DNA of 64,000 nt from the NCBI RefSeq assembly GCF_030384885.1, contig NZ_CP128614.1; one strand, written 5' to 3'. The notes beneath the pieces were generated by a model, which saw nothing but the letters and a program-made list of their open reading frames with translations, did not search any database and was not told the DNA's origin. The position numbers were made by a program, and so were the translations under genes. This document shows positions 6,158-29,832 of the stretch, one piece after another. Origin of the DNA: Escherichia coli (GTDB lineage Bacteria > Pseudomonadota > Gammaproteobacteria > Enterobacterales > Enterobacteriaceae). Position 1 is the stretch's first letter; the number at the start of each line of letters is the position of its first letter.

Positions 6158-6162
6158 GATGT

Positions 6163-7062: not shown

Positions 7063-7063
7063 A

Positions 7064-12379: not shown

Positions 12380-12448
12380 GATTCACTCCTGAGGGCTTGA
12401 CGGGTTTAGCCACCTAAATGTAACAGTCACGTCGGTTATATTCAATCC

Positions 12449-13268: not shown

Positions 13269-13412
13269 ACGCAAAGACGTAATGAGCAGTGTATCCCCTG
13301 CCACAATACCCTCTTCAGGGATGCTGTCAGTGGACGTCCAGTACTGACCCGCCAGCAAAGAATGAAATCGCTCTAAACGGTCAATGCTATTTTTGCTGAC
13401 CAGGTCACCCAT
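13269..13412 (-). pseudogene. 5' fragment of a backbone gene cut by the IS26 right end
   Basis: Minus-strand ATG at 13410-13412 opens a frame (MGDLVSKNSIDRLERFHSLLAGQYWTSTDSIPEEG…) that runs straight into the IS26 terminal repeat at 13268. Confidence 0.35.
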
Positions 13413-14979: not shown

Positions 14980-15414
14980 ATGTCTGTTATCCTTGAGCAC
15001 ATTAGCAACAAGCCTTACGAAATGGCACCTTTTTTCAGTGATTTACTGAGCTGTGGAGTGATGAGTCCGTGCGCCGGGCATGAAGATAATGAATTAAATT
15101 TGCATGAATATGTAGTCCGTAACCGCCCCTCAACCTTCTTTGTCAGGGCGGCGGGCCTCAGTATGATCAATGCCGGTATCAATGATGGCGCTATTCTGGT
15201 TGTGGATCGGTCTTTAACGGCACGACACGGCTCTATCGTCGTTGCGCTGGTGGATGGAGAGTTCACGGTAAAGATCTTACACACGTATCCTGAGCTGCTT
15301 TTGATGCCTTCTAATCCAGCCTATAAGCCGATACGTGTAAATCCCGAATCCCTTGAGATATGGGGCGTCGTCACCTTTGCACTGAATCAGTTTAGCCATG
15401 TACATGCACGTTGA
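14980..15414 (+). CDS. umuD: UmuD/MucA-like SOS mutagenesis protein (S24 LexA-like self-cleaving peptidase)
   Basis: 144-aa ORF with a Cys-Gly cleavage dipeptide near residue 25 and an S24 serine motif (GLSMINAG). Confidence 0.8.
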   Translation: MSVILEHISNKPYEMAPFFSDLLSCGVMSPCAGHEDNELNLHEYVVRNRPSTFFVRAAGLSMINAGINDGAILVVDRSLTARHGSIVVALVDGEFTVKILHTYPELLLMPSNPAYKPIRVNPESLEIWGVVTFALNQFSHVHAR

Positions 15415-16657: not shown

Positions 16658-16693
16658 CGGCCATGACCGGCATGGCCGTACTCATCAAAAGTG

Positions 16694-16704
16694 AAAGTAA
16701 CTTT
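16694..16704. repeat. Palindrome AAAGTAACTTT, copy a (intergenic)
   Basis: Read directly; between the umuC stop and the DsbA-like gene stop. Confidence 0.6.
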
Positions 16705-17512
16705 AGGCCCCGCGAGCTTTTTCGATTGCGCCCTGCAAAGTTGCTGCGTCCATAGCCCCGGGGATAAATGTGGTAGTCGCCGCATTCGGCTTTTTCATAT
16801 TCATAATGATGAAGCCGGGTGTGCCGGTGATCCCAAGCGCTTCGCCCAGCTGCATGTTGCCGGAGATCACGTTTTCATATCGGTTTTTTTCCCTGTCAGA
16901 AAACGTGCTGTTAAACCCTGACTTATCCACCACAGTATTAAAGTCGCTGAGTTCGAATTTGCGTTGAGAGGTCATGAAGGTATGAGCCACAGCCATCAGG
17001 TTGTTGTGGTATTTACGATAGGCTTCAGCACCGAAATTCTGATAGACGTGCAGACCCGTAGCGGCCCCCATGGCAGATACAGGTTTTGAACCGGCAAAAA
17101 TCGGGAATTCTTTAAAGAAGAATTTTACATCTTTGCTCTGATTCATTACCGATTCAACAACAGGTGTAACCCGCATGCAGTAAATACACTGATAGTCGAA
17201 GAACTCGATTACCGCGACGTCGGCGTCATCCGGGCCGATGTTTGGCGTCTCCTTGGTATCCAGCAGAGCTGGCGCATATGGAATTATTCGTTCCACTGAG
17301 GCACTTACGTTCTGATTTTCCAGCGCCTTACCTGCTTCCACTAAATAATGGGGATTTTTTACCAGGTAAGTAGCGGCAATTTTGCCAATTTCTTCCTCAC
17401 TGAGCACCTTCGGTTTAAAATAAGTTGCCGCGATTAACGCCGAGGCAGCGGTAGCAATTACCGCAGAAATTAAAATCGTGGCCATCGGTTTTAAATAAAA
17501 TTCTTTAGACAT
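16703..17512 (-). CDS. DsbA-like periplasmic thioredoxin-fold oxidoreductase
   Basis: 269-aa ORF with an N-terminal anchor/signal and a CxxC motif (DYQCIYC). Confidence 0.55.
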   Translation of the reverse strand: MSKEFYLKPMATILISAVIATAASALIAATYFKPKVLSEEEIGKIAATYLVKNPHYLVEAGKALENQNVSASVERIIPYAPALLDTKETPNIGPDDADVAVIEFFDYQCIYCMRVTPVVESVMNQSKDVKFFFKEFPIFAGSKPVSAMGAATGLHVYQNFGAEAYRKYHNNLMAVAHTFMTSQRKFELSDFNTVVDKSGFNSTFSDREKNRYENVISGNMQLGEALGITGTPGFIIMNMKKPNAATTTFIPGAMDAATLQGAIEKARGA

Positions 17513-17618
17513 AGCTACCTTTATGCTTTTCAGCCTGTTAGTTATTAACCTGCGATGGATTATACTGGCCCGGTAAATCGGAATTATTCGTGAAACAATG
17601 CTTTTTGGAGATTAAAGG

Positions 17619-18230
17619 ATGATTAGGCAGGGCTTTATACTCACAACCGCAATGCTTTTGAGTGGTTGTGGATATCATTTCGCAAACCAGGTAGATGCGT
17701 ACGATCTAATGCCTCGTCCTGTTACAAATAAAAGGTTTCAGATAGTCCCTCCGGACGAAAGTATTCAGTCCAGAATGTTTTCAGGCCGTTTTGCTGATGG
17801 ATTAGCAAAAAAAGGAGTCATTATTTCCACTCACCAGCCAGATTATGTGCTCAGGTTCCGAATGAGCAGCTCACAGGAGAACATGCAGTATAGCGAGCAG
17901 CTTCTTACTGGGGTGACAGGCTACGTTGTAGATAAAAAGACAACGAGAACTGACAAGCATGGCGAATCGCATACTGACTATGACTACAGGCCGGTCGATG
18001 GGGTAATAGGCACTGAGACGATGTCGCAGATGCACTATATGCGACAGCTGGATGTCGAGGTATACCCGTCAGCGAAAGGAGCAAAGCAGGTTCTGAAAGT
18101 GAGTATGCAAAGCAATGCACCTGTGCCGTCAGACAGCATTGCTTATTCAGCAATGATCGACGCCTTTACTGATAAATTTGATGCGCCGCTGCGTTCCGGA
18201 AATTATGTTGCAGTGATCCCCTGGAACTGA
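17619..18230 (+). CDS. Putative lipoprotein
   Basis: 203-aa ORF with lipobox (LLSGC) after a short signal peptide. Confidence 0.5.
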   Translation: MIRQGFILTTAMLLSGCGYHFANQVDAYDLMPRPVTNKRFQIVPPDESIQSRMFSGRFADGLAKKGVIISTHQPDYVLRFRMSSSQENMQYSEQLLTGVTGYVVDKKTTRTDKHGESHTDYDYRPVDGVIGTETMSQMHYMRQLDVEVYPSAKGAKQVLKVSMQSNAPVPSDSIAYSAMIDAFTDKFDAPLRSGNYVAVIPWN

Positions 18231-18289
18231 AAGCAGACGGCGGGAAGAGAATGTTCAAAAGTGACTTTTGGACACGCACATAAACGTGG

Positions 18290-18712
18290 CTATCGCCCTC
18301 CCCCATTAAAATCATAAAGTCGGTAAAGATCGCCCATCGTGATGGAATTGGGCTTATTAATGATTAGATACTGTAACTGTTCTTTATGTTGAGTACTGGC
18401 GGCTGCATTCATAAGCACTTCCAGGTAGAACTTGTAGCCTATGCTTCGCTCTGAATACATATACTGGAACTGCATCAGTAAAATGCCTGACATAACATAC
18501 AACAGCAGCAGACTGAGTAACACAGTGCTATCAGGCTGTTCCAGTGCCATACTGACATACCCTGAACCCAGAATGCACAGAAGCCAACCCGTCATTAGAG
18601 CAGGCACCCTACGACTCAGACGTTCATAACAACGTTTTATTACGGGATCCCGGAGATACTTTTTGTCAGGTATCCCCGTTGCCCTGATGACGAAGTTACT
18701 GAGTATCGACAT
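18290..18712 (-). CDS. Hypothetical membrane protein
   Basis: 140-aa ORF with predicted transmembrane helices. Confidence 0.4.
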   Translation of the reverse strand: MSILSNFVIRATGIPDKKYLRDPVIKRCYERLSRRVPALMTGWLLCILGSGYVSMALEQPDSTVLLSLLLLYVMSGILLMQFQYMYSERSIGYKFYLEVLMNAAASTQHKEQLQYLIINKPNSITMGDLYRLYDFNGGGR

Positions 18713-18745
18713 CTTTTTTCCTTCTGGACGCTCTCAGTCAATAAA

Positions 18746-19144
18746 TCAGGCCAGGCGCTCATTGAAAGCTACCACGAGCTGCGAATCGGGATTTTTTACC
18801 AGTTCGGGCCGGATAACTTTTAGTTGCCTCGTTGGGGCGAGCTCATCTGTAGGCCTGATGGTGGTATTACCCGGCCCCTTGCGGGTACTGTCGGTGTTTA
18901 CCTTGAGCTTTTTATTTCCCAGGTAGCTTTCCATCTTTTTAGAGATGGTGTCACCTGTGGTCGCAACACCAGAGAGTTCCTTTAGTTGTTCACCTTGATC
19001 CATTTGTACCGATGACATCAGAAATACGATTCCTGGATCGTTTTCCGTTCCACAGGCTCCGTACTGACATTGTGCAGCGAAAACGGGCTGTACACCTACA
19101 GCAACCAGCATTAACGTACTCAGTAAAGTAGATTTCATACACAC
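18746..19144 (-). CDS. Hypothetical secreted protein
   Basis: 132-aa ORF with signal peptide (MCMKSTLLSTLMLVAVGVQPVFA). Confidence 0.45.
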   Translation of the reverse strand: MCMKSTLLSTLMLVAVGVQPVFAAQCQYGACGTENDPGIVFLMSSVQMDQGEQLKELSGVATTGDTISKKMESYLGNKKLKVNTDSTRKGPGNTTIRPTDELAPTRQLKVIRPELVKNPDSQLVVAFNERLA

Positions 19145-19158
19145 CTCTTACAGTCGGA

Positions 19159-19169
19159 AAAGTTACTTT
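19159..19169. repeat. Palindrome AAAGTTACTTT, copy b (overlaps the DsbC-like stop)
   Basis: Read directly (GGAAAAGTTACTTTTGCGC). Confidence 0.6.
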
Positions 19170-19912
19170 TGCGCAGCGCCCATTTGGGTCACCAGGTTTT
19201 CCGGGCTCAGCCACCCCGTAAATAACTGCGGTTTGCCGCTTAGTGTCACCATGGTAGGAGTACCTTGCAGCGGGATTGTTGAGGCCACCTGGAAATGCGA
19301 TTTGATAATGTTTAAGCAAGCCTCATCAGGACGTCCTTCCGGGATAGTTGAAACCGGATTCATCGCTGCATCCAGAGCTTCGTTTGGCTTTGCTGAACAC
19401 CAGATTTTGGCCATGTTCCCGGCTACTACCGAGTTCAGTCCTGCACGTGGGAATGCAAGAAACTTAATCGAAATACCGGCATCAAGATAAGACTTCAGAT
19501 CATGATGCAGTTTTTGGCAGTATCCACAGGTTATATCGGTAAAGATAGCAAGCCGGTATTTTTCGTTTGGTGATTTGTAGTCGATGGATTTTGTTTTGGA
19601 TGCGAATTCCCGGACGCCCATTAAAATGGCCTGCTCAGTGGTGTTTACCACATCTTTACCTTTCACGTGGAATAAGCTTCCGGTAAAAATGTAATCTCCG
19701 TCTTTGCTCACGTAACTTACCCCCTCCCTGGAAATCACCGTAAAAATATCTTTTACTGGCGAGGGTTCGACGTGCTCGATTGAAAGCCCAATGGCTTTGA
19801 GCTTATCCCGGGCTGCATCTGGCAGTACCATTGTATTAACCGGCTCGGCATTCATCGTGAAGGCGGTACTTAATGAAAGAAGTAATACCGATGCCTTAAT
19901 AATTTTTTTCAT
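19163..19912 (-). CDS. dsbC: DsbC-like thiol:disulfide interchange protein
   Basis: 249-aa ORF with signal peptide and the DsbC active site CGYC. Confidence 0.75.
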   Translation of the reverse strand: MKKIIKASVLLLSLSTAFTMNAEPVNTMVLPDAARDKLKAIGLSIEHVEPSPVKDIFTVISREGVSYVSKDGDYIFTGSLFHVKGKDVVNTTEQAILMGVREFASKTKSIDYKSPNEKYRLAIFTDITCGYCQKLHHDLKSYLDAGISIKFLAFPRAGLNSVVAGNMAKIWCSAKPNEALDAAMNPVSTIPEGRPDEACLNIIKSHFQVASTIPLQGTPTMVTLSGKPQLFTGWLSPENLVTQMGAAQK

Positions 19913-20059
19913 TTATGCTCCTTGAATCGAGCACTAATATTATCACGCCCAAAAATTCCAGAATTTTGCTTAAACGCTTAAATCAACGGGTAAAGCCGAA
20001 AGAAAGTCGATAGATATATGGGAGAATAGATAAAACGTAGATTCAGTGGAGAAATCGTT

Positions 20060-20599
20060 GTGTTTACACCACCAGCAGATGATGTGAAACCTATTCCCGT
20101 TCCTGATGAGATTTACACTCAGTGCATTACGGATGCCGCCCGCTTCTTCGGAATTGATGCCGAACTGGTTTTTACGTTGTTTGACAATGAAGGCGGTAAG
20201 GTTGGTACTTTCAGCAGGAATACTAACGGCACTTATGATATTGGCCCGATGCAGATCAACTCATCCAATCTGCCTGAAATAAAAAAGCATTTCCCGACTG
20301 TAACGTGGCGGGTTCTGGCTTACGATGCTTGCGCTAGTTTCTGGGTTGGAACATGGTGGCTCTACAGAAAAATTGTTGATCGCAAGGGCAATGTGTTTGA
20401 AGGGATTGCAGATTACAACAGCAAAACCCCAAAGGTACGTGCAAAGTACATATTTAACTTCATGGTAAAGTACAATCGCCGGATCCAGCAGCGTAACGGG
20501 ATGGGTGAGCTTTATCAATGGACCCAACAACCTCCTCGATACAATGGCCATATAGCTAAAAATGTCCCGGAGCAAAACCCGACTCCTGTTGTTAAATAA
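20060..20599 (+). CDS. Lytic transglycosylase (SLT domain), probably T4SS-associated
   Basis: 179-aa ORF with SLT-like motifs (GPMQIN, ADYNS). Confidence 0.6.
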   Translation: MFTPPADDVKPIPVPDEIYTQCITDAARFFGIDAELVFTLFDNEGGKVGTFSRNTNGTYDIGPMQINSSNLPEIKKHFPTVTWRVLAYDACASFWVGTWWLYRKIVDRKGNVFEGIADYNSKTPKVRAKYIFNFMVKYNRRIQQRNGMGELYQWTQQPPRYNGHIAKNVPEQNPTPVVK

Positions 20600-20681
20600 A
20601 TTCAACCTGATATTACAGAAGATCATCGAGTAGCTTGGGTACCCCCCCGCAAAAAATTCGCATAGACTCAGGGGTAATAAA

Positions 20682-21248
20682 TTGTCTTTTTCTGCAAGAA
20701 ATATATTTAAGATTCTCTCTTCTTTCTTGATGCAGAAAAGCCCTCTTCATGAAGAAGTATGTGTTCCTGAAGAAACAACAGCTGGTTTATGGGGCCCTCT
20801 CCCTGATTCGCATGTCGTGCTTTTCTTAGATTTCGATGGGGTTTGTCACAGGTGCAAAAATGAAACCTTTGAGCGAATGCCATTGGTGGAAAAATTACTG
20901 GATAAATGCCCTTCCATGGTGATTGTCATCTCCAGTTCGTGGCGTGAATGTGCCAGTATAACTTACCTGAAATCTCTTTTCCGGCTACCTTATAGAGACA
21001 AAGTCATAGGTGCTACCGATTCGGTATATTTAAAACCTAATCAGTCAGGTGTGCGGGCTGCTGAGTGTGAGGACTTTGTATTTTCACATCGAGTTAAAGC
21101 ATTTATCTGCCTTGATGACGACGAATCATTATTCCCGGTCGGTTATCCACATTTGCAAAAAACCAATTATTACACCGGCCTCACCGAATCTGATCTTGCA
21201 GCTCTTAACACCAGGTATCATCTGCTTATGAAACGTTGGGCTTCCTGA
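20682..21248 (+). CDS. HAD-like hydrolase (putative)
   Basis: 188-aa ORF with HAD motif I (VVLFLDFDGV) and a distal DDD motif (CLDDDESLF). Confidence 0.45.
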   Translation: MSFSARNIFKILSSFLMQKSPLHEEVCVPEETTAGLWGPLPDSHVVLFLDFDGVCHRCKNETFERMPLVEKLLDKCPSMVIVISSSWRECASITYLKSLFRLPYRDKVIGATDSVYLKPNQSGVRAAECEDFVFSHRVKAFICLDDDESLFPVGYPHLQKTNYYTGLTESDLAALNTRYHLLMKRWAS

Positions 21249-21251
21249 ATT

Positions 21252-21262
21252 AAAGTAACTTT
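21252..21262. repeat. Palindrome AAAGTAACTTT, copy c (intergenic)
   Basis: Read directly (TTAAAGTAACTTTTACGG). Confidence 0.6.
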
Positions 21263-21355
21263 TACGGAGAGCATGCCCGCATTATCAGTTCTATGCTTCT
21301 CCATTTCTGCCCCGGGTCAAAGCATTGCACAGTTGGAAGAAAACATGCCGGTCTC

Positions 21356-22645
21356 TTAAGCTTGCTGCTCAGTTTGGTTCCGGTGCTGAAAAACCTGCCA
21401 ACGGTGCTTTAGGAATTCAGTATTGATGGGTTTACGCAGCGGCTTAATAAACTCTCCTTGATATGCCGCTAAATCATGATCTACCGCCAAAGCTTCAGCG
21501 AGAATGTTAACCTCCAACGTCACCGGATGAATGGCAATCATGTTTGCGTCGAAAAGATCGTGTATATCATGGCGTAAGAGCAACCCATTTGTATAATGGT
21601 CTACTCCTCCGTTACGATGCTCCATCAGATGAGCAGCCTCAGTGCGCTGGCGCAGTCTAGAGCCTGTAATCACACATTGGTCATAACAGTTGTTGCGGAC
21701 GGCTTCTGCAAATGAGGCCTGATCTGGTCGTGTCTCGACAGTTGTCTTACTACCCTTACGCTTACCCGGTACAGTAGTTTCATCAGGAATATTCGGCTGA
21801 AGCTCCTTTTCTTCTATACCATCAGTCTTCATAGCGACCATAATCGCGGCCGGTGGAGATTTAGGCTGATCTTCCTGCGATCTTTCGCGGCCACCAACTG
21901 GATACCCTAGAAAACCCTCAATGATCTCTAGTGGAGGTAATGTAGCGTTTGAACGTGCATAAATAGCGAACTCTGCGGCACGTCCGCCGGGAATATATCT
22001 ACGTACCAGTATTGGAAGAGAGGCTTCTTCATCTGGTTCCTCTTTTTCCGACAGGATTATTCGTTCGGTGAGACGGGCTGAATTTTTTTTCATTTCACTC
22101 AACAGTCTATTGCGTTCTTTTACCTTTCGGTCATTATCCTCCAACATCTTACGATGACTAACCTTAGCCAGATGGTCTTCCAGTTCCTGTATATATTCGG
22201 GATCGATAGTGTCAATTAGACCGAACGCCATCAACCGCTCCCCCCTTGTTTTACAAGATTCTAGCCGAACGCGAATGTACTCCTTACGCTTGGCCATCAA
22301 ATGTTCTTTTTGTTTTTTTTCTCGAATTACACGGAGCTGAGTATTGTAATTAGAATAAACGGTTTCGCTATTCTGCTCTGTCTCTAGAGCAAATTTTTGT
22401 AGGTGTTCACGTAGTTTTTTACGGGTATTTTTGGGGGCATGCATTACGGTACGCTCAATGTATGAGCCTGTGCAGCGTAAAGAAAGTACAGTTTCAGCAT
22501 GGGAATAACCAGCATTGAGACGATAGCGGGCAATTTTAAGCAAATTATTAAAGTGTGCACCATTACATATACCTAGTTCTTCCAAGACACGACGTTCTCT
22601 ATCATTAATAGATGGATGGTTAATATCTTTTACTTTGTTTGCCAT
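21356..22645 (-). CDS. HNH endonuclease-domain protein with a large charged/coiled-coil N-terminal region
   Basis: 429-aa ORF; C-terminus has an HNH-like motif (…CVITGSRL…EAAHLMEHRNGGVDHYTNGLLLRHDIHDLFD…). Confidence 0.55.
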   Translation of the reverse strand: MANKVKDINHPSINDRERRVLEELGICNGAHFNNLLKIARYRLNAGYSHAETVLSLRCTGSYIERTVMHAPKNTRKKLREHLQKFALETEQNSETVYSNYNTQLRVIREKKQKEHLMAKRKEYIRVRLESCKTRGERLMAFGLIDTIDPEYIQELEDHLAKVSHRKMLEDNDRKVKERNRLLSEMKKNSARLTERIILSEKEEPDEEASLPILVRRYIPGGRAAEFAIYARSNATLPPLEIIEGFLGYPVGGRERSQEDQPKSPPAAIMVAMKTDGIEEKELQPNIPDETTVPGKRKGSKTTVETRPDQASFAEAVRNNCYDQCVITGSRLRQRTEAAHLMEHRNGGVDHYTNGLLLRHDIHDLFDANMIAIHPVTLEVNILAEALAVDHDLAAYQGEFIKPLRKPINTEFLKHRWQVFQHRNQTEQQA

Positions 22646-22730
22646 GTCCTGTGTCTCAGTGCCTATTCAGCCGGAACATCTACTACATAAAGAACGAGAT
22701 TGTACAGAAATCAGCTAAGTTTATGAATAA

Positions 22731-22765
22731 AAAAGGCCGCAAATTTATACTTTGCGGCCTTCACT
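22731..22765 (-). terminator. Rho-independent terminator after trhG
   Basis: GC hairpin (AAGGCCGCAAA…TTTGCGGCCTT) followed by a T-run on the minus strand, about 60 bp past the trhG stop. Confidence 0.6.
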
Positions 22766-22825
22766 GTTTAACACCATATTTTAGTAAATACGTTTAATTT
22801 TCATTAGGTTATATTTGAAACTCAC

Positions 22826-25800
22826 CTACCTTTTATTTTCATTAAGCCACTGATCCGCTTTATCGACACGTGACTGGTAAGGCTCATTTGTGTTGCTCAG
22901 CTCTGACTTCATGTACTGAATGAATTCATCTGCTTTCTGAGGCCCAAAGCGTGGGTCATCCGTCAATTGCTGCCGGATAGCCCTTTCAGAGTTCTGCGCT
23001 GCATTCGCATAAGTCGAAACGCCGTCGCTGCTAATACTCTGATACCGGTCACTTACAGCTGCGACGCCATCAGACATCTGCATGTGATTAAGGACTTTAC
23101 CCTGGAGAGAATCAGGCATATTTGCAGGGTTAGAGGCATCATTTGCTATCGATGTCTGGGTTTGAAGGATGCCCGCTCCCGTAAGCATCTCATTTACCGG
23201 TTTCGCCCCAACGCTGGTTAGCGTATCCGAAACAAATTGCTGGCCCCCGAGTAGCGCACCAGAAATCGCGCCCCGCTCAGTGTTGGCCTCTATCTTTTCC
23301 CCAACCAAGCGATCTGTGACGGTCTGAGTGCGGTTACCAACGAGACCACCGCCCGACCCACCCTCTCCTAGGTTTGCCCGTACGACTGACTCAAGTGAAC
23401 CATCAGCTCTGTTATGAGTGTTGAAACTGCTATGGATGCTCTGAACGTCATTCATACTCCAGTTAACGTTATAGTTACCCAGTTCATTAAGGATCTTCTG
23501 GGTATCCGCTTTGAGCTGCTCTCTTTCGGCACCGGTAGCCATGGTGCTGGCACCATAGGTAAAGACAGCTTGCTGTGCCAATTCAGCTCGCTTATCGTCC
23601 CGGCTTAAGTTCGGGTTGTTGGCAACACGACTAAAGTAGTTATCAGTGTTATTAGATAAGCCACGAACTTGACCGCTCTGATACATACTGTTCAAAGCAG
23701 TGGCTCGTTGATCCATTCCATCACCAACCACCCGACCTCCGGTAGCCTTTTCCAGATCGTTAAATGTGCCTTCTGCATTTCTGACATCCTGACCTGAATT
23801 GACGACTTTCTCTACACCCTGATTATTCAGTACAGGGCCATTCGTTTTGAGAGAATTGAGCACATTCCTTTCTTCATCAGAATAAGTGCGGCCCACGTTG
23901 TTGTTATGTATTCCCTGAATATCGCCTTTGCCCGCGTTATCAAGGTTATACGGAGTAAAGCCAGCTTCACTTTTTCCAGGGACACGCTGAGTCGCGTCCT
24001 GAGCGTTGGAGGAAAGACCGAGTTTAGCCTGCGAATCAACACTTCCACCCAGTTCCCCTACGCGTGACGCACTCATCACGCCAGACGTATTTACGCTGTC
24101 AGGAGTTCTATCCTGTGCCTGAGTGATAGTATTAATTCCTGACCCTTCGCCTGAAATTCTGTCGAGCTGATTGGTGATAGGTAGCAGCTGCTGTGCATTA
24201 CCACCGAAGTCGGAAACCAGACTTTTAAGCAGGCTGGAGGTTTCACGGAGATCCTGTTTATTACTTTCGGCCGTCTCTCCCCGGGCGGTATCAATCGCAA
24301 TTTTTTGCTCACTGAAATCTCGTGTTGCAGCCACAAGCGCGTCAGTACGTTGAAGCTGCGAACCAAGCTGATTACTGGCCTTGAAGGTATCGTTATAGGA
24401 GTTGAATTTCTCCATAAACGCATTCTCATCCAGCCCATTCTTACGAGCAAAATTCCTTACATCATCATCACTGAAGTTTTTGTTGCGAATAGAATCGGAG
24501 AACCTGTCCAGGTTAATGCTTTGTTTAGAATCAAGGCTCATTCCACTATTGGAGCTGGCGTTAGTCGATACCGATGTAGAAATGTTTTGCGCCATCGTCT
24601 GTGTCGCCTGGTTCATTTTCGACGATGCTTCTTTAAACGCATTAGTATTGGATATCTGATCGCTGCTTACCTGAGACGCCGCTTTACTGAACTGGTCAGT
24701 CAAAGCAGAATCCTGGCTAAGCTGATTCGTGATTGCTTTTGAAAGGTCATTTGAAAGCGAGTCACTGCCTGTATTGGTCTTAGATGCGCCGCTACTCAAT
24801 TGCCCTGCTACAGCTGCTTTCAGCCCGGCTCCGTTGCCAGTTCCAGCACCTCCATTAAGCCCAGCGTTTAGAATAACATTTGAAGCAATGCTGGCCATCT
24901 GAGACGCACTCACCCCATGTTTCGTTGCAATACCTTCTGCTACAGAGGCACCAATCTTATCCGAGATCTGCTTCATTGTTTGCAGGTTGGTTGAGAACTG
25001 CTGGCTCGACTGTCCTGACCTTCCAATTTCACTCATCTGACTGTAACCAGCCTGGAATGAATTACTTGCCGCACTCATAACTGATGAGGTTACAGCTGAT
25101 CCTTGCCCCTGGCTGTTAGCGATACTTGAACCAGCATTCCACATTCCAAGACGGAAATTACTTGAATCAACTGCGCCGCCATCGCTGTATCCCTGACCGG
25201 TACTGGTCAAGGCGGTTCGTGTCACGTCACCAAATGAAGATTTACCGCTGTTAGGGCCATCCCATACTTTGGGCGTTACATGACCAGTATCCACCGGCGC
25301 ATCGGGGGTCACTCCCTTAACCGCATTCATCATCGGGTGAATCGACTGTGTCATCAGGAATAATGTGAGTACCGGAATCAGAGCATAAAGCGCGGAAGCA
25401 ACAGACAGGTATGAACTGTATGTTTCCGCAAGCCCTGGGAGCCCCATCCACGTGACGGCATTATTCTGGCTGTTGAGGGTGCTCCAGGTATCCAGATCGG
25501 CCGTCGCGACTTTCTTCACATACGCGTTGACCATTACTGCCGTAAGCGGCCACATATTCACGAAGAGAATAAGTTGCAAATATTTCGCCGCAGCGGCAAC
25601 ACCATTACCACCTAACGCCAGCAGCATAAGCAAAGCAAATGGAGCAACCATGTAAGCAAACATCTCAAGGAATGCGATTGCTGCTCCAGACAGTTGTAAC
25701 CACAACTGGCCCTGTGAAGCCATTGTGTTGGTTCGCTTCAGAGAAGCCTCAAACAACTGCATATCGGAAGCCAGACTGAGTGGGGTCTTATATTTGCTTG

Positions 25801-26779
25801 CGCCATTTCTGAGCTCATTCATTATGAACAGGTTCAGGGTGGCGTCATACGAACCAATAGCCTTACCGTACATACCATTTGCTGACGCCATAACATCAGT
25901 AAAACTTGCGCCGGTAGGTGCACCATTTGCTTCGTCTGGAGTAAGGATGCCGTTTGTCTGTCCTATAAGGGAAATAGTCTGGCGAGCTTCAGCTGTACTG
26001 GTAACCTGTTTCACAGTTGACCAGACCTCATCACACGTACCAGATTTTGAACCGTTAGCGCCAACAATACTGGCAGAGGCATTCTTCAGTGCGCCTTTCA
26101 TCGCCTGATTAATCCGGTCCATGCTATCTGCCAGATTAGCTGAGAAAATATCGTTAAAAATAGTTTCTTTACCGGCAATATTTGCGCTTGAGTTTTGGGT
26201 AGCCTTCAGGCAGTTGTATGCAAGAGACTGAACGGTAGCACATACGTTCATTGGCCCTAGCCCGCTGGCCGGTTCAGGAAATGCAGAACAGTAGCCCTGG
26301 CTATCGCCGCCCCATTGCAAAAACTTCACGAATCGGATCATCGGACCGAGGGTGATGTCATCGTCCAGAGTTGTTGCAGACAGGTCCACCGGAGAAAGCG
26401 GATCAAACGCAGTTTTATAATCCTTCAGCAAACCCTGGCTTAAGTTAGTGGTGACGGTGGCCATCGCAGCAATAAAAATTGGAATTCCGTCGACGTTTCT
26501 GACCTCTCCCGACTTTACAGATTCAATAGTTACATCCACTCGAACCATTGCCATCATGAAAAGGATCAACCCCAAAAACCAGGAGAAAAACGGTAATTCA
26601 TTTTTGGTCGGAGCCTGAAGCCATAGCCACGTTTTATAGAATAGGCTCACACCTGCTACAACGGCGGCCGTGGTCAGGAACTCTTTTACACCAGTATATT
26701 GAGAAAAGATTAGGGCAATACCGGTAAAAGCCGACCAGACAAAATCAATATCACCCAGGGTATATATGTTGTAATCCAT
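22826..26779 (-). CDS. trhG: F-type T4SS TraG/TrhG-like mating-pair stabilisation protein
   Basis: 1317-aa ORF with an N-terminal polytopic membrane domain and long Ser/Gly/Asn-rich C-terminal region; last gene of the trhF-trhH-trhG block. Confidence 0.75.
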   Translation of the reverse strand: MDYNIYTLGDIDFVWSAFTGIALIFSQYTGVKEFLTTAAVVAGVSLFYKTWLWLQAPTKNELPFFSWFLGLILFMMAMVRVDVTIESVKSGEVRNVDGIPIFIAAMATVTTNLSQGLLKDYKTAFDPLSPVDLSATTLDDDITLGPMIRFVKFLQWGGDSQGYCSAFPEPASGLGPMNVCATVQSLAYNCLKATQNSSANIAGKETIFNDIFSANLADSMDRINQAMKGALKNASASIVGANGSKSGTCDEVWSTVKQVTSTAEARQTISLIGQTNGILTPDEANGAPTGASFTDVMASANGMYGKAIGSYDATLNLFIMNELRNGASKYKTPLSLASDMQLFEASLKRTNTMASQGQLWLQLSGAAIAFLEMFAYMVAPFALLMLLALGGNGVAAAAKYLQLILFVNMWPLTAVMVNAYVKKVATADLDTWSTLNSQNNAVTWMGLPGLAETYSSYLSVASALYALIPVLTLFLMTQSIHPMMNAVKGVTPDAPVDTGHVTPKVWDGPNSGKSSFGDVTRTALTSTGQGYSDGGAVDSSNFRLGMWNAGSSIANSQGQGSAVTSSVMSAASNSFQAGYSQMSEIGRSGQSSQQFSTNLQTMKQISDKIGASVAEGIATKHGVSASQMASIASNVILNAGLNGGAGTGNGAGLKAAVAGQLSSGASKTNTGSDSLSNDLSKAITNQLSQDSALTDQFSKAASQVSSDQISNTNAFKEASSKMNQATQTMAQNISTSVSTNASSNSGMSLDSKQSINLDRFSDSIRNKNFSDDDVRNFARKNGLDENAFMEKFNSYNDTFKASNQLGSQLQRTDALVAATRDFSEQKIAIDTARGETAESNKQDLRETSSLLKSLVSDFGGNAQQLLPITNQLDRISGEGSGINTITQAQDRTPDSVNTSGVMSASRVGELGGSVDSQAKLGLSSNAQDATQRVPGKSEAGFTPYNLDNAGKGDIQGIHNNNVGRTYSDEERNVLNSLKTNGPVLNNQGVEKVVNSGQDVRNAEGTFNDLEKATGGRVVGDGMDQRATALNSMYQSGQVRGLSNNTDNYFSRVANNPNLSRDDKRAELAQQAVFTYGASTMATGAEREQLKADTQKILNELGNYNVNWSMNDVQSIHSSFNTHNRADGSLESVVRANLGEGGSGGGLVGNRTQTVTDRLVGEKIEANTERGAISGALLGGQQFVSDTLTSVGAKPVNEMLTGAGILQTQTSIANDASNPANMPDSLQGKVLNHMQMSDGVAAVSDRYQSISSDGVSTYANAAQNSERAIRQQLTDDPRFGPQKADEFIQYMKSELSNTNEPYQSRVDKADQWLNENKR

Positions 26780-26787
26780 GTCAGACC

Positions 26788-28266
26788 TCAGTTACGTGTG
26801 CCACGAATACTTTCAGTGAAAGCCTTCCGTTGCAGGCGACGGTTATCCCAGGTTGAAATGACGTCCGAGCTGGTACCGACCTGGCTGTGCGATAGCTCAT
26901 AGGCGGCTTTAACCTGTTTTGAGAGATTGTCTGTTAATCGGTTGAGATCATCCCTTTTACCCGACAGCGACTCACTCGGTATGCTCATGGTTGAAATTTT
27001 GGCCTCAACCTGGCGCAACATGTTGATTACGAGGCTCGTCGCAGCAATAGTGCTTATGTCCTGAATGTATGCGTACCCTTCCGGTGCTTCGAATGTTTGC
27101 AAAGAGTCGATAATGGTCGGGATGCCGATATAGGAGATAATGCGTAATTCATCATCTGAAACACGAACGTCGTTGATGATTTTTTTCTGTACGTTTAAAA
27201 GAAGATCAGAAATGGTATCCTTCAATCCCTTAAAACCACCGTCATTAACTTCTGACATGACAAGGCACTGAGCCTTTCGTGGGGATGATGGATCTGGTGC
27301 CGGAGAACACTTGAGCATTTTAATTGATCCGCCAGCTGGTGGCCCCATGATGTAATCCGTGACAGTCATGGTAGACGGGCGGACTTCCATTCCCGCTTTT
27401 TCGCCTTTGCTATCCCAGTTGATAATGACAGTACCCACGAGAGACATAAGTTGTTCTGCCAATTTATAACCGGATAACTCCGTTACCCCTCCGATGTTCA
27501 TTGTTCCCTTATCAATATCCATGAACGACATATAGAAGAGGTTACCACTGAATTTTTCAGCGAACTCTTCGGGATCCTTTGCTTTAACCTGAGAAGTGAC
27601 AGCTTCAGGTGACTTTGTCATCGATGAGCCAAAATCAGGAATGAGACCATTAATCGATCCCAGAATTGAGGCTGGTCCAGAGCTAACTGAGTTAGCGAAC
27701 TGGCTTGGCGTACCCACGTTTTCAGAAAGGAAAGAGTAAGTTGCATTGCATGAATCTTTCGCAAATTTATTTAGCGCTTGCAGTTTGTTTTGGATGTCAT
27801 TAATCGTTGCAGCACAGTCAGCACAAATAGCTGAAACAGCAACGTTAAAAGCATAGATAGCCGCACCCTGGGCAATACCACGGGCCACCTGCACAAGCTG
27901 GTCCCCGTTGATCATGCTGAAGGACCCAAGAAAAACGTCAATACCATTACAACCGACAGAAGCTTTTGGAAACGACATGGAAACAAGGTTGGTATTAACG
28001 TTTGTTGTTCGGTAAGACATTGACCCGCCAACTATGCCTGTACGGGTTGCTGTGGAAAAGGTGGCCGGGCTGGTAGACGTCATCATGCCATTGAAAATGT
28101 TACGCATTGCGTTGTCTGCATTTGCAGTCGGGGCTAAAATTGCAGCACAAACAGAAAGAGACAAAAGTAACTTTTTGAAGTTGAAAACGGCATTACTGCG
28201 CATAAGTGCCTCCAAAACTGCCGCCAGCATTGAGATAATTGACCGGATCGGCCGTAGGCATGTCAT
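26788..28266 (-). CDS. trhH: F-type T4SS TraH/TrhH-like protein
   Basis: 492-aa ORF with a signal peptide; the true start is probably the internal Met near 28203. Confidence 0.75.
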   Translation of the reverse strand: MTCLRPIRSIISMLAAVLEALMRSNAVFNFKKLLLSLSVCAAILAPTANADNAMRNIFNGMMTSTSPATFSTATRTGIVGGSMSYRTTNVNTNLVSMSFPKASVGCNGIDVFLGSFSMINGDQLVQVARGIAQGAAIYAFNVAVSAICADCAATINDIQNKLQALNKFAKDSCNATYSFLSENVGTPSQFANSVSSGPASILGSINGLIPDFGSSMTKSPEAVTSQVKAKDPEEFAEKFSGNLFYMSFMDIDKGTMNIGGVTELSGYKLAEQLMSLVGTVIINWDSKGEKAGMEVRPSTMTVTDYIMGPPAGGSIKMLKCSPAPDPSSPRKAQCLVMSEVNDGGFKGLKDTISDLLLNVQKKIINDVRVSDDELRIISYIGIPTIIDSLQTFEAPEGYAYIQDISTIAATSLVINMLRQVEAKISTMSIPSESLSGKRDDLNRLTDNLSKQVKAAYELSHSQVGTSSDVISTWDNRRLQRKAFTESIRGTRN

Positions 28267-29239
28267 AGCCTTCGAGTTTTTGGTCCATTATTTTTTGAAG
28301 TAAGAATGGGTCTGATTCCATTTCGGATTTATTAACGGTAATAACGCCATCATCACCGATGGTATATTGCCTTTTAATATCTAGAGTTGACTGAAACGAA
28401 GCGTCATCGATCAGATTCATGCCCTTCGCGGCAAGTATAATAGTGTTCTTTAATTCATCAGCGGAGATCATGCCTTCACTAATGCGCTGAGCTGATGTCC
28501 CATCCTTTGAAACCAGGAAAATTGTAGGTACCTCTCGAATTTTAAATTGATCAATAATTTGTGCATTGGGGATGTTAAAATCCTGAAAAAGGCCATTATG
28601 CAATGGCCTTCCATCCATACTGATTGGAAGAATATCTACCGAATAATAGTTCTGCATAAATTGAAGTATTTGGCTCTCTTCGTGGCAAAACTGGCAAGTA
28701 CTCTGGAAAAAGAAAAATAAACCTGACTTAGTAAAGATATCTTTCATTACCGTTTGCTGATTTTTTTCAACAACAGTGCGGTGAGCATCCAGTGCCACCT
28801 TTTCCACTGGTTGCCTGCGTTTTTCAGACATCATCGGGTTTTTAAGAAAATAATCTTTTGATTTGTCAGAAAAACGCGTACTGATATCCAGCATTAACCT
28901 TTGCGCCGTGTAATAACGTGATAGATTTTCTGCGGTAGGGTTATCCATTGCCTGCGTTAACAGTCGAGGCATATTCTCTTTTAGCCATTTTGAATTTAAA
29001 TCTACCTTTTCCTCTTTTGAAGGCGAGCTAGCAGCACCGGTTGGTGGCAAAACCTTTTCTTCTTCAGCTTCGCTTTTTTTAGCAGGATCGTCATACCAGA
29101 AGAAACCCTTCTTATAAGCCTGGCCTGATACAAAGGGCGTATCTTTTATTAGGGGTTGCTCAGGGCTGGCGTGGGCACCAGTAATTACCAAAGACATAAG
29201 CAAAACCATCTTTGAAGGCGCTAATGCAATACGAGTCAT
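28193..29239 (-). CDS. trhF: F-type T4SS TraF/TrbB-family thioredoxin-fold protein (TrhF-like)
   Basis: 348-aa ORF with signal peptide and a CxxC motif (CQFC) in a thioredoxin-like C-terminal domain. Confidence 0.7.
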   Translation of the reverse strand: MTRIALAPSKMVLLMSLVITGAHASPEQPLIKDTPFVSGQAYKKGFFWYDDPAKKSEAEEEKVLPPTGAASSPSKEEKVDLNSKWLKENMPRLLTQAMDNPTAENLSRYYTAQRLMLDISTRFSDKSKDYFLKNPMMSEKRRQPVEKVALDAHRTVVEKNQQTVMKDIFTKSGLFFFFQSTCQFCHEESQILQFMQNYYSVDILPISMDGRPLHNGLFQDFNIPNAQIIDQFKIREVPTIFLVSKDGTSAQRISEGMISADELKNTIILAAKGMNLIDDASFQSTLDIKRQYTIGDDGVITVNKSEMESDPFLLQKIMDQKLEGYDMPTADPVNYLNAGGSFGGTYAQ

Positions 29240-29832
29240 AGACCGTTCTCCTTTTCTGATGCGGTTATGATGGCATACAAAAAAAAGGTTAGAGCTCGTA
29301 TAGCATGGTCGTTTTTATGTTGAAAAGGACGGAAAAGGAGTGCTGACTAAGAAGATAGTCTCGGTGATGGAAAGATCATCCATCTTGCACATTGTGAAAA
29401 ATCCGGTGTAACAAAAACATGGTTTTATCGAATATCTAAAAGCAAATATTGCTTTGAAAACAGGTGTATTAAGAGCTGAAAAAAATCATCACCAGTAACG
29501 CTGTTTCTATATTTCAAAGAAGGAATAGCTAAGGATCAAAGAAGCGAACTTAGGCAAGAATATAAAATATATTAATTGAAAGCGATTAAGAAGTCGTCAT
29601 GCATAGAAGGTTTTAGAGAACCTAAGTAGTTTTACGTTTTCAACAGAAAAAAAGGTGAACATTTTTTGGAACGAAGAAAGACTGTATAAAGAAAAATCAA
29701 ATTATATCTTTACTTGTCAAGAGTTAATATTTAAGTTGTAACTAATATTTGATTGTAAAGCAAACAACAGAATTTGACTTAAGTCAATATTTAGATTCAG
29801 ACAAGGCAAGTTTCGCGATATCTTTTTTAAAT

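What the first reader, a model, noticed from the sequence alone, without database searches (positions are those of the whole stretch)
16703..29239. Three CxxC thioredoxin-fold proteins around the T4SS block
A DsbA-like protein (CIYC, 16703..17512), a DsbC-like protein (CGYC, 19163..19912) and the TrhF/TrbB-like protein (CQFC, 28193..29239) are all encoded near the pilus assembly genes. This points to a plasmid-supplied disulfide oxidation/isomerisation pathway for T4SS components.
Basis: partly seen in the sequence, partly recalled or inferred. Interest (0 to 1): 0.3.

Follow-up and report, generated by a model that had tools for sequence, protein, structure and literature searches.

The report
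IncHI2 plasmid's known disulfide-folding helper genes
The three genes are real periplasmic thioredoxin-fold proteins, but they are a long-sequenced backbone feature of IncHI resistance plasmids whose role in folding the cysteine-rich mating apparatus was already studied in the sister plasmid R27, so the finding is correct and mostly ordinary.

Summary
All three ORFs exist at the stated coordinates, and each has one CxxC motif inside a significant thioredoxin-fold domain.

The window is an IncHI2 plasmid. This block is 100% identical to hundreds of sequenced plasmids and syntenic with IncHI1 R27 (75-84% protein identity).

Refinements:
- The "DsbA-like" protein is not a classical monomeric DsbA. 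It belongs to the BcfH/ScsC class, which has an N-terminal helical extension. Those proteins are trimeric oxidase/isomerases.
- TrhF is a TraF-family mating-pair-formation protein. Its CxxC is conserved across the TraF-like clade.
- Only trhF sits in a tra operon. A strong terminator follows trhG, and dsbC and the dsbA-like gene are separate transcription units.
- A fourth thioredoxin-fold gene, htdT, lies about 155 kb away, outside the window.
- No DsbB or DsbD partner is annotated on a matching plasmid, so recycling must depend on the host.
- The cysteine-rich likely clients are TrhN (32 Cys), TrhU (16) and TrhH (7), not TrhG (4).

The role of the DsbA-like gene in conjugation remains untested. 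It recurs in an SLT-DsbC-x-x-DsbA-HAD cassette and at the ends of F-type tra operons.

The parts
16703..17512 (-). DsbA-family protein of the BcfH/ScsC class. 269 aa, CIYC at 109-112, invariant G-T-P loop at 230-232. The N-terminus has a hydrophobic helix (residues 7-31) followed by a helical extension (39-83). Orthologue of R27 R0135.
   Evidence: Pfam DSBA E 6.5e-20. PDB phmmer best hit is 7JVE BcfH, E 1.5e-35 over residues 37-268, followed by ScsC and WpDsbA2. AF2 model has pLDDT 88.4; Foldseek top hit is BcfH at E 5.8e-19. 75% identical to R27. 26 of 29 aligned relatives carry ScsC_N PF18312.
17619..18230 (+). Predicted lipoprotein (203 aa, lipobox LSGC at Cys17), divergent from the dsbA-like gene. 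Conserved neighbour; function unknown.
   Evidence: ORF. R27 orthologue is annotated as a lipoprotein, 69% identity. No Pfam or NCBIfam hit.
18290..18712 (-). 140-aa hydrophobic protein (helical membrane segments judged by eye from the sequence, not predicted with a tool). Last gene of the likely dsbC operon; function unknown.
   Evidence: Lies 33 nt after the preceding gene. R27 orthologue 45% identity. dN/dS 0.21.
18746..19138 (-). 130-aa secreted protein with a Cys pair (C24, C29) directly after its signal peptide. Lies 24 nt downstream of dsbC; function unknown.
   Evidence: R27 orthologue 58% identity, also with 2 Cys. dN/dS 0.19.
19163..19912 (-). DsbC-family disulfide isomerase paralogue. 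249 aa, signal peptide, DsbC_N dimerisation domain, CGYC at 129-132, second Cys pair C172/C199.
   Evidence: Pfam DsbC_N E 7.4e-14 and Thioredoxin_2 E 3.7e-16. PDB hits to DsbC structures at E 1e-43 to 1e-35, with the active-site motif (tCGYC), both later Cys and the GTP loop aligned. NCBIfam DsbC 178 bits, below the equivalog cutoff of 215. 84% identical to R27 DsbC.
20060..20599 (+). Lytic transglycosylase (TrbN/IagB-like; bfpH/R0130 orthologue), divergent from dsbC across a 147-bp intergenic region.
   Evidence: Pfam SLT E 6e-05. NCBIfam TrbN E 7.3e-23. 86% identical to R27. The R27 orthologue is induced with R0135 under transfer-permissive conditions.
20730..21248 (+). HAD-domain protein. 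It is part of the conserved cassette, which is also present in a Klebsiella IncF plasmid.
   Evidence: RefSeq annotation. 57% identical to R27. 43% identical to pKP9.
22732..22762 (-). Intrinsic-terminator-like hairpin (12-bp stem, 6 G-C pairs, T-run) 64 nt after the trhG stop codon. It ends the trhF-trhH-trhG operon.
22826..26779 (-). TrhG (TraG_N family, 1317 aa, 4 Cys).
   Evidence: Pfam TraG_N E 5.4e-29. Cys count.
26788..28203 (-). TrhH (TraH family, 471 aa from the RefSeq start). It has 7 Cys including CADC; one lies in the signal peptide.
   Evidence: Pfam TraH E 4.8e-57. RefSeq annotation. Cys positions.
28193..29239 (-). TrhF in R27 nomenclature: a TraF-family Mpf protein. It has a signal peptide, a helical N-domain and a C-terminal thioredoxin domain with CQFC at 182-185 and the conserved Pro238.
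   Evidence: Pfam TraF E 2.6e-51. TIGR02740 328.7 bits, above the cutoff of 232.25. C182, C185 and P238 are invariant in 15 orthologues. CxxC is present in 135 of 140 sequences (query plus 139 diverse representatives). AF2 thioredoxin domain has pLDDT 80-92; Foldseek finds ResA/TlpA-like thioredoxins at E 3e-4.

Best explanation
The window is part of an IncHI2 conjugative plasmid. Its backbone encodes four periplasmic thioredoxin-fold proteins, three of them in this window, which assist oxidative folding of the cysteine-rich F-like (MPF_F) mating apparatus.

1. TrhF is a TraF-family component of the apparatus, translationally coupled to TrhH. By analogy with F TraF, its N-domain docks on TrhH. 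Its C-terminal thioredoxin domain keeps a complete CxxC/cis-Pro site, so it probably acts locally on its partners. This last step is inferred.

2. The DsbC paralogue is a secreted V-shaped dimeric isomerase. Host DsbD keeps it reduced. It reshuffles wrong disulfides in multi-cysteine clients (TrhN 32 Cys, TrhU 16, TrhH 7) and is redundant with host DsbC. This is shown for the R27 orthologue and inferred here.

3. The 'DsbA-like' protein belongs to the BcfH/ScsC class, not the classical DsbA class. A hydrophobic N-terminal helix is followed by a helical oligomerisation arm and a DsbA-type catalytic domain. It most likely forms a trimer, possibly membrane-tethered, that works as an oxidase/isomerase for transfer-related envelope proteins. 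This is inferred; its role in conjugation is untested.

The plasmid carries no DsbB or DsbD equivalent, so the system borrows host redox recycling. dsbC and the dsbA-like gene are separate transcription units within a conserved cassette: SLT, DsbC, two small proteins, DsbA-like, HAD.
For: Identity and conservation:
- The 14-kb block is 100% identical in many IncHI2A plasmids. 920 of 1032 matching records cover at least 80% of it.
- R27 has the same gene order, at 75-87% protein identity.
- Between IncHI1 and IncHI2, synonymous sites are saturated. dN is only 0.098 for dsbC and 0.156 for the dsbA-like gene, the same range as trhF (0.099), trhH (0.086) and trhG (0.172).

Domain and fold assignments.

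TrhF:
- CxxC and the conserved Pro are invariant in orthologues.
- CxxC is present in 135 of 140 sequences (query plus 139 diverse TraF-like representatives).

Likely clients:
- Cys counts on an IncHI2 plasmid are TrhN 32, TrhU 16, TrhH 7, TrhG 4.

Literature:
- R27 dsbC deletion lowers transfer about 10^4-fold in dsbC-null hosts. F trbB deletion lowers it about 10-fold (PMC10838148).
- F TraF binds TraH, and TrbB is a DsbD-dependent isomerase (PMC7555446).
- R27 R0135 (dsbA) and bfpH are induced at 25 C and in an htdA mutant (PMC7366339).
- BcfH is a trimeric DsbA-like protein (PMC11653150; PMC11634996).
- The title of the Legionella DsbA2 (Com1-like) paper links that protein to Dot/Icm T4SS disulfide formation (reference seen).

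Linkage to conjugation loci:
- The DsbA-family gene sits directly after traI, or after traX and finO, in two IncF plasmids.
- It lies in an SLT/DsbC/x/x/DsbA/HAD cassette in a Klebsiella IncF plasmid.
- 2463 of 3232 plasmids with a homologue are typed as conjugative.
- Rts1 carries an analogous trio inside its Mpf operons.

No DsbB or DsbD is annotated on NZ_LT795115.1.
Against: - No experiment on the IncHI2 genes themselves was found.
- The DsbA-like gene's role in transfer is untested in any IncHI plasmid, to my knowledge.
- dsbC and the dsbA-like gene lie outside the tra operons, beyond a terminator.
- From my memory of the Elton 2005 abstract, overproduced R27 TrhF did not rescue DTT hypersensitivity of mating, unlike DsbC(R27) and HtdT. 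That argues against general isomerase activity for TrhF.
- The window protein itself does not reach E 0.01 against ScsC_N, so trimerisation is inferred from relatives and from the alignment to BcfH.
- ScsC-type proteins also act in copper tolerance, which would be a different role.
- The PLSDB gene tables are incomplete, so the absence of DsbB and DsbD is not absolute.
- The baseline fraction of conjugative plasmids in PLSDB was not computed, so the 76% figure is not a tested enrichment.
Confidence: 0.6

Rival explanations
1. The DsbC paralogue and the DsbA-like protein are general periplasmic proteostasis or stress cargo. They might serve copper or other metal tolerance in the manner of ScsC, or fold other plasmid-encoded exported proteins such as the large Ig-like adhesins, beta-lactamases or MCR. 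On this view they help the host or plasmid in new hosts and are not dedicated to the T4SS.
For: - After BcfH, the closest structures are the copper-tolerance ScsC proteins.
- 26 of 29 relatives carry the 'copper resistance ScsC N-terminal domain'.
- The genes lie outside the tra operons, behind a terminator.
- IncHI2 plasmids carry tellurite-resistance genes and several Ig-like exported proteins; RSP has 8 Cys.
- 615 of 3232 plasmids with a homologue are typed non-mobilizable.
Against: - No ScsB or ScsD partner is adjacent or annotated anywhere on the plasmid.
- The block is equally conserved in R27.
- The R27 orthologue is co-induced with tra genes.
- The gene recurs directly at the ends of F-type tra operons and beside a T4SS-type lytic transglycosylase.
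- R27 dsbC deletion has a conjugation phenotype.
Confidence: 0.2
2. TrhF is purely a structural or chaperone-like Mpf subunit, like F TraF, and its CxxC is not used for redox catalysis. Only DsbC and HtdT perform disulfide chemistry for the apparatus.
For: - F TraF is essential yet lacks CxxC (PMC7555446).
- From my memory of the Elton 2005 abstract, R27 TrhF did not complement in DTT or dsbA assays.
- 5 of 140 sequences in the TraF-like set lack the motif, so it is dispensable in some lineages.
Against: CxxC and the cis-Pro position are invariant in 15 TrhF orthologues down to 28% identity. They are present in 135 of 140 sequences (query plus 139 diverse representatives), although the two middle residues vary. 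That pattern is typical of selection on the two cysteines.
Confidence: 0.35
3. The co-location is incidental. The two dsb genes are hitchhiking accessory genes in a variable region next to umuDC and resistance modules, with no functional tie to each other or to transfer.
For: - They are flanked on one side by umuDC and an IS26/ISCR1 resistance region.
- An HNH gene has been inserted in the same stretch in IncHI2.
Against: - The gene order is identical in IncHI1 and IncHI2 despite saturated synonymous divergence, and dN is as low as for the Mpf genes.
- A DsbC/DsbA/SLT/HAD cassette recurs in an unrelated IncF plasmid at 43-73% identity.
Confidence: 0.05

Closest known systems
R27 (IncHI1) TrhF, DsbC(R27), HtdT and R0135 'dsbA' (Elton et al. 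2005, J Bacteriol 187:8267; Lawley et al. Tra1/Tra2 analyses)
   Same: Direct orthologues in identical gene order: TrhF 84%, DsbC 84% and DsbA-family 75% identity. The CxxC motifs sit at the same residue numbers. htdT is also present in IncHI2, at 81-82% identity.
   Different: The middle residues of two motifs differ: CIYC here against CHFC in R27, and CGYC against CGFC. IncHI2 has an extra HNH endonuclease gene between trhG and the HAD gene. The R0135 orthologue was not, to my knowledge, part of the 2005 functional study.
F-plasmid TraF and TrbB
   Same: TrhF belongs to the same Pfam family (PF13728). It has TraF's length class and N-domain together with TrbB's CxxC. TrbB is a DsbD-dependent isomerase that is redundant with host DsbC.
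   Different: TrhF fails the equivalog cutoffs for both TraF (113.5 against 204.6) and TrbB (56.5 against 132), and matches TIGR02740 'TraF-like' instead. F splits the two roles between two proteins; IncHI has one TraF-like protein plus DsbC-type isomerases.
Salmonella BcfH (PDB 7JVE), a trimeric DsbA-like oxidase/isomerase of a fimbrial operon, and the trimeric ScsC proteins (Proteus, Caulobacter)
   Same: These are the best sequence match (E 1.5e-35, covering the N-terminal helix region) and the best fold match (E 5.8e-19) for the DsbA-like protein. They share the helical N-terminal arm, the DsbA-type catalytic domain and the G-T-P loop.
   Different: Identity is only about 29% by Foldseek. 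The window protein has a long hydrophobic N-terminal helix where relatives have a classic signal peptide. It is plasmid-borne beside transfer genes, not in a fimbrial or scs operon. It does not individually reach the ScsC_N threshold. Its oligomeric state is untested.
DsbP of IncA/C plasmids and S054 of SXT; Rts1 Orf206, Orf212 and Orf240
   Same: Related MOBH/MPF_F elements also encode DsbC-like, DsbA-family and CxxC-TraF proteins within their Mpf operons. Some are needed for transfer even in dsbC+ hosts. DsbP appears among the PDB hits of the DsbC paralogue (E 3.7e-12).
   Different: DsbP, S054 and Orf212 correspond to HtdT (22-24% identity), not to the window DsbC. Rts1 Orf206 resembles the window DsbA-like protein only around the active site: 31% over 54 aa.
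Legionella pneumophila DsbA2 (27-kDa Com1-like protein)
   Same: It is a Com1-like DsbA-family protein linked to T4SS (Dot/Icm) disulfide formation (title cited). The window protein hits a Com1-like '27kDa outer membrane protein' structure, 3GYK, at E 5.7e-13.
   Different: It was not compared directly because no sequence was available here. It is chromosomal and serves a type IVB system.

Membership tests
DsbC (dimeric periplasmic disulfide isomerase) | N-terminal dimerisation domain (DsbC_N) | tested here: met
   PF10411 E 7.4e-14, residues 32-89.
DsbC (dimeric periplasmic disulfide isomerase) | Thioredoxin domain with CGYC active site, Thr-Pro (cis-Pro) loop and second structural Cys pair | tested here: met
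   CGYC at 129-132. C172 and C199 align with the Cys pair of the DsbC structures, and the 'qGTP' loop aligns.
DsbC (dimeric periplasmic disulfide isomerase) | Scores as the chromosomal DsbC equivalog (NCBIfam NF008129 cutoff) | tested here: not met
   178.3 bits against a cutoff of 215. It is a DsbC-family paralogue, not the housekeeping DsbC.
DsbC (dimeric periplasmic disulfide isomerase) | Isomerase activity and DsbD-dependent reduced state | not testable with these tools
   Known only by literature on the 84%-identical R27 orthologue.
Classical DsbA (monomeric oxidase, DsbB partner) | DsbA-type thioredoxin domain with helical insertion and a CxxC motif | tested here: met
   PF01323 E 6.5e-20 over residues 101-263. 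The AF2 model shows a thioredoxin core with a helical insertion.
Classical DsbA (monomeric oxidase, DsbB partner) | Monomeric architecture without an oligomerisation arm; closest structures are DsbA oxidases | tested here: not met
   A helical extension of about 45 residues (39-83) precedes the catalytic domain. The top 20 Foldseek hits are BcfH and ScsC chains, mostly the trimeric forms. E. coli DsbA is absent from the top 50.
Classical DsbA (monomeric oxidase, DsbB partner) | CPHC-type active site | tested here: not met
   The motif is CIYC here and CHFC in R27. CPHC as the E. coli DsbA motif is from my own knowledge.
BcfH/ScsC-type trimeric DsbA-like proteins | N-terminal helical trimerisation domain (Pfam ScsC_N PF18312) | tested here: inconclusive
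   The window protein has no hit at E <= 0.01. However, 26 of 29 aligned relatives do, in the same alignment columns. The phmmer alignment to BcfH starts at residue 37, inside this arm.
BcfH/ScsC-type trimeric DsbA-like proteins | Trimer in solution; dual oxidase/isomerase activity | not testable with these tools
   Needs SEC-MALS or AUC and enzyme assays. Only monomer modelling was available.
BcfH/ScsC-type trimeric DsbA-like proteins | Genomic partners (ScsB/ScsD for Scs systems; fimbrial operon for BcfH) | tested here: not met
   The neighbours are a lipoprotein gene, umuC and the dsbC operon. No ScsB or ScsD is annotated on the plasmid.
TraF/TrbB family of F-like T4SS (PF13728) | Full-length match to the family model above its curated cutoff | tested here: met
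   PF13728 175 bits against a cutoff of 23, covering profile positions 1-223 of 224. TIGR02740 328.7 bits against 232.25.
TraF/TrbB family of F-like T4SS (PF13728) | C-terminal thioredoxin fold | tested here: met
   AF2 residues about 150-290 have pLDDT 78-92. Foldseek finds ResA, TlpA, DsbE and thioredoxin structures at E 3e-4 to 5e-3 with probability 1.00.
TraF/TrbB family of F-like T4SS (PF13728) | Equivalog of F TraF (TIGR02739) or of F TrbB (TIGR02738) | tested here: not met
   113.5 bits against 204.6, and 56.5 against 132. It is a sister subfamily that combines TraF architecture with a CxxC.
TraF/TrbB family of F-like T4SS (PF13728) | Gene embedded with traH and traG homologues | tested here: met
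   trhF overlaps trhH by 11 nt, trhG follows 8 nt later, and a terminator comes after trhG.

The most novel reading that the evidence does not exclude
The BcfH/ScsC-like 'DsbA family' gene, the DsbC paralogue, the TrbN-like lytic transglycosylase gene and the HAD gene together form a portable envelope-preparation cassette. It is shared by IncHI plasmids and many IncF plasmids and recurs at the distal end of F-type tra operons. The probably trimeric, membrane-tethered oxidoreductase would be a dedicated and so far uncharacterised assembly factor for F-like conjugative pili. It would make transfer less dependent on the host's own DsbA/DsbC system, which would matter for host range and for Dsb-inhibitor strategies against the spread of resistance.
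Probability: 0.3. Interest if true: 0.45.

Novelty: already known. Interest (0 to 1): 0.15.

Why it matters
IncHI2 plasmids are major carriers of mcr-1, carbapenemase and other multidrug-resistance genes. Their transfer apparatus contains very cysteine-rich proteins that need correct disulfides.

Conjugative plasmids are already known to bring their own disulfide isomerases (R27, F, IncA/C, SXT, Rts1). This finding therefore adds no new principle.

The useful residue is narrower. The DsbA-family gene, present on more than 3000 sequenced plasmids, belongs to the BcfH/ScsC class and has never been tested for a role in conjugation. If plasmid-borne Dsb enzymes buffer transfer against loss or inhibition of host DsbA or DsbC, proposed DsbA/DsbB inhibitors might be less effective at blocking plasmid spread than hoped.

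Tried and rejected
- Primary papers. I tried to read Elton 2005, Hemmis & Schildbach 2013, Hemmis 2011, Premkumar 2014 and Jameson-Lee 2011. None is held. Their content is therefore taken from citing papers or marked as my own recollection.
- Promoter scan of 16.5-30 kb. It was uninformative: 8 sites against 22 expected from shuffles. Only the terminator after trhG was used.
- dN/dS between IncHI1 and IncHI2. Synonymous sites are saturated for six of eight genes, so only dN values are reported.
- PDB sequence search with TrhF. It gave nothing, so the fold was established through AF2 and Foldseek instead. The overall model is mediocre (pLDDT 63.6), and only the thioredoxin domain is trusted.
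- Orthology of Rts1 Orf206 with the DsbA-like protein. Rejected: similarity is only 31% over 54 aa around the active site.
- Homology of the two small genes between DsbC and DsbA in Klebsiella pKP9 with the window's 130- and 140-aa genes. No tblastn similarity at E < 1e-3.
- The DsbD_N-containing ORF at 732..1763 as the missing reductant. Rejected: it is a chimeric remnant of the blaNDM-type resistance module, lacks DsbD's membrane and C-terminal domains, and is found on many unrelated plasmid types.
- Literature searches for IncHI2 plus DsbA plus conjugation. No functional study was found.

Full report
**What is there**

| ORF | Length | Motif and cysteines | Main domain evidence |
|---|---|---|---|
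| 16703..17512 | 269 aa | CIYC at 109-112; no other Cys | Pfam DSBA E 6.5e-20 |
| 19163..19912 | 249 aa | CGYC at 129-132; also C172 and C199 | Pfam DsbC_N E 7.4e-14, Thioredoxin_2 E 3.7e-16 |
| 28193..29239 | 348 aa | CQFC at 182-185 | Pfam TraF E 2.6e-51; NCBIfam TIGR02740 'TraF-like' 328.7 bits, cutoff 232.25 |

Each has a Shine-Dalgarno-like motif and a hydrophobic N-terminus.

**Where the window comes from**

- The 14-kb stretch 16000..30000 is 100% identical to many IncHI2A plasmids of E. coli, Salmonella and other Enterobacteriaceae. 1032 PLSDB records match and 920 of them cover at least 80% of it.
- RefSeq annotates the genes as 'DsbA family protein', 'thioredoxin fold domain-containing protein' and 'thioredoxin family protein', next to trhH and a TraG_N protein.
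- The IncHI1 prototype R27 has the same order: trhF, trhH, trhG, HAD, lytic transglycosylase, dsbC, two small genes, lipoprotein, DsbA family, umuCD.
- Protein identities to R27 are 84% (TrhF), 87% (TrhH), 76% (TrhG), 84% (DsbC) and 75% (DsbA family). The CxxC motifs sit at identical residue numbers.
- The only structural difference is an HNH endonuclease gene (21356..22645), which IncHI2 has between trhG and the HAD gene.
- Between the two plasmid groups, synonymous sites are saturated. dN is 0.098 for dsbC and 0.156 for the DsbA-family gene, matching trhF (0.099), trhH (0.086) and trhG (0.172). These are backbone genes under purifying selection.

**Transcription layout**

- trhF overlaps trhH by 11 nt, and trhG follows 8 nt later.
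- A 12-bp-stem terminator lies 64 nt after trhG, at 22762..22732 on the minus strand.
- dsbC is therefore not in that operon. It starts a likely three-gene unit: dsbC, then a 130-aa gene after 24 nt, then a 140-aa gene after 33 nt. This unit is divergent from a TrbN/IagB-like lytic transglycosylase gene across 147 bp.
- The DsbA-family gene stands alone. It is divergent from a lipoprotein gene and convergent with umuC.
- 'Around the T4SS block' is thus accurate only loosely. The window holds the Tra1-type part (trhF/H/G, relaxase, coupling protein). The pilus-assembly operons lie elsewhere on the plasmid.

**The DsbC paralogue**

- It aligns over its full length with solved DsbC structures at E 1e-43 to 1e-35. 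The CGYC motif, the second Cys pair and the G-T-P loop are conserved.
- It scores 178 bits on the NCBIfam DsbC equivalog, whose cutoff is 215. It is a DsbC-family paralogue, not the housekeeping enzyme.
- A paper on Rts1 summarises the primary work: deleting R27 dsbC lowers conjugation about 10,000-fold, but only in dsbC-null hosts. Deleting F trbB lowers it about 10-fold (PMC10838148).

**The 'DsbA-like' protein**

- Its best PDB sequence match is 7JVE, at E 1.5e-35 over residues 37-268. ScsC proteins, Wolbachia DsbA2 and a Com1-like '27kDa outer membrane protein' follow.
- 7JVE is Salmonella BcfH, a trimeric DsbA-like protein that oligomerises through a long N-terminal helix (PMC11653150; PMC11634996).
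- An AF2 model built from 29 relatives (pLDDT 88.4) shows a hydrophobic helix at 7-31, a helical arm at 39-83 and then the catalytic domain.
- Foldseek ranks BcfH first (E 5.8e-19) and the ScsC proteins next. E. coli DsbA is not in the top 50.
- 26 of 29 aligned relatives carry the ScsC_N domain. The window protein itself does not reach E 0.01 for that domain.
- It should therefore not be filed as a classical DsbA oxidase. The best reading is a BcfH/ScsC-class oxidoreductase, probably trimeric. That class has shown both oxidase and isomerase/reductase behaviour and tends to avoid DsbB.

**TrhF**

- It has TraF's length and architecture plus a TrbB-like CxxC. It fails the equivalog cutoffs of both F TraF and F TrbB.
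- C182, C185 and Pro238 are invariant in 15 orthologues down to 28% identity.
- In the alignment of 140 sequences (query plus 139 representatives at 50% clustering), 135 keep CxxC at the aligned site with variable middle residues.
- The AF2 thioredoxin domain (residues about 150-290, pLDDT 78-92) matches ResA/TlpA-type thioredoxins.
- In F, TraF binds TraH and is essential for pilus extension (PMC7555446).
- From my recollection of the Elton 2005 abstract, which I could not read here, R27 TrhF did not show DsbC-like complementation whereas DsbC(R27) and HtdT did. The strong conservation of the two cysteines argues that they matter, perhaps for a local or partner-specific reaction. This remains open.

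1. A fourth thioredoxin-fold gene, htdT (CDGC), sits in the trhA-trhC operon. It is present in IncHI2 at 81-82% identity to R27 (1115 records). On a plasmid carrying the identical block it lies about 155 kb from the dsbC gene.
2. No DsbB, DsbD, CcdA or ScsB is annotated on that 246-kb plasmid. The plasmid supplies periplasmic catalysts but not their recycling partners. The PLSDB gene table is incomplete, so this absence is not absolute.
3. The cysteine-rich candidates are TrhN (32 Cys) and TrhU (16 Cys), both outside the window, and TrhH (7 Cys). TrhG has only 4 Cys in 1317 residues.

**Wider context**

- Homologues of the DsbA-family protein occur on 3232 PLSDB plasmids, and 2463 of these are typed as conjugative.
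- In two IncF plasmids the gene directly follows traI, or traX and finO.
- A Klebsiella IncFIB/FII plasmid carries a cassette with an IS-truncated SLT gene (73% identity), DsbC (47%), two small genes, DsbA family (43%) and HAD (43%). This mirrors the IncHI arrangement.
- Rts1 (IncT) has an analogous set inside its Mpf operons: a DsbA family gene before traL, a DsbC family gene between traV and traC, and a CKLC TraF. Its Orf206 is only weakly similar to the window protein.
- In R27, R0135 ('dsbA') and the transglycosylase gene bfpH are induced at 25 C and in an htdA mutant, both conditions that favour transfer (PMC7366339).

**Verdict**

- It is partly supported. The isomerase arm has experimental backing in the orthologue. 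The 'oxidation' arm is unproven and the enzyme class was mis-assigned. The pathway is also incomplete without host DsbB and DsbD.
- The only mildly open point is the function of the BcfH/ScsC-like gene and its recurring cassette.
- Interest is low, and novelty is 'already known'.

Noticed in passing
window 732..1763 (-), with 83..721 (+) and 2076..3617 (-): A 343-aa ORF carries a DsbD N-terminal domain (PF11412, E 6.2e-30, with the Cys pair in 'YQGCADAGVCYPP') fused to an unrelated GH109_C-like tail. It lies between trpF and ISCR1, followed by sul1 and aadA. This is the remnant of a blaNDM-type module (blaNDM, ble, trpF, dsbD, cutA), so ble and blaNDM probably lie just left of the window start.
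   Followed up: partly
window 21356..22645 (-): An HNH endonuclease gene (429 aa, PF13391 E 1.5e-10) lies between trhG and the HAD gene. It is absent from this position in R27, so it is an IncHI2-specific insertion into the conserved block.
   Followed up: no
window 18746..19138 (-) and 18290..18712 (-): Two small conserved genes lie downstream of dsbC. One encodes a 130-aa secreted protein with a Cys pair (C24, C29) right after its signal peptide. The other encodes a 140-aa hydrophobic, probably membrane, protein. Neither matches any family. R27 orthologues are 58% and 45% identical, with dN/dS about 0.2. They could be clients or partners of the Dsb proteins.
   Followed up: partly
L005 (Klebsiella pKP9) 6821..12142; L006 8890..9693; L007 8917..9708: An SLT/DsbC/x/x/DsbA-family/HAD cassette resembling the IncHI one occurs on a Klebsiella IncFIB/FII plasmid. 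In two other IncF plasmids the DsbA-family gene sits directly after traI, or after traX and finO, at the end of the tra operon.
   Followed up: partly
L003 10873..11385; L009 5057..5569; window 28193..29239: There is a name collision. RefSeq labels the S26 signal-peptidase gene next to trhW (TrhP in the Rts1 paper's R27 column) as 'IncHI-type conjugal transfer protein TrhF'. The TrhF of R27 nomenclature (TraF-like, the gene in this finding) is labelled only 'thioredoxin family protein'. This is easy to confuse in database searches.
   Followed up: yes
window 26788..28266 (-): The longest ORF for trhH starts at 28266 (492 aa). RefSeq uses the ATG at 28203 (471 aa), which has a GGAGG motif upstream and overlaps the trhF stop codon by 11 nt. 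The shorter start looks right.
   Followed up: yes
window 1..13400: This is a high-GC (0.50-0.65) acquired resistance region. It contains ISCR1, sul1, aadA, an integrase, IS26-type transposase fragments, and an MFS gene plus a phosphotransferase gene (mph-like cluster at 10239..12379). It abuts the backbone just before umuDC at 14980..16657.
   Followed up: no
L015 (Rts1) 6969..7814, 12192..12938, 34795..35886: Rts1 (IncT) carries a DsbA-family gene before traL, a DsbC-family gene between traV and traC, and a CKLC-containing TraF-like gene before traH, plus a second DsbA-family gene upstream of the relaxase gene. Multiple thioredoxin-fold genes appear to be a common trait of the MOBH/MPF_F lineage.
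   Followed up: partly
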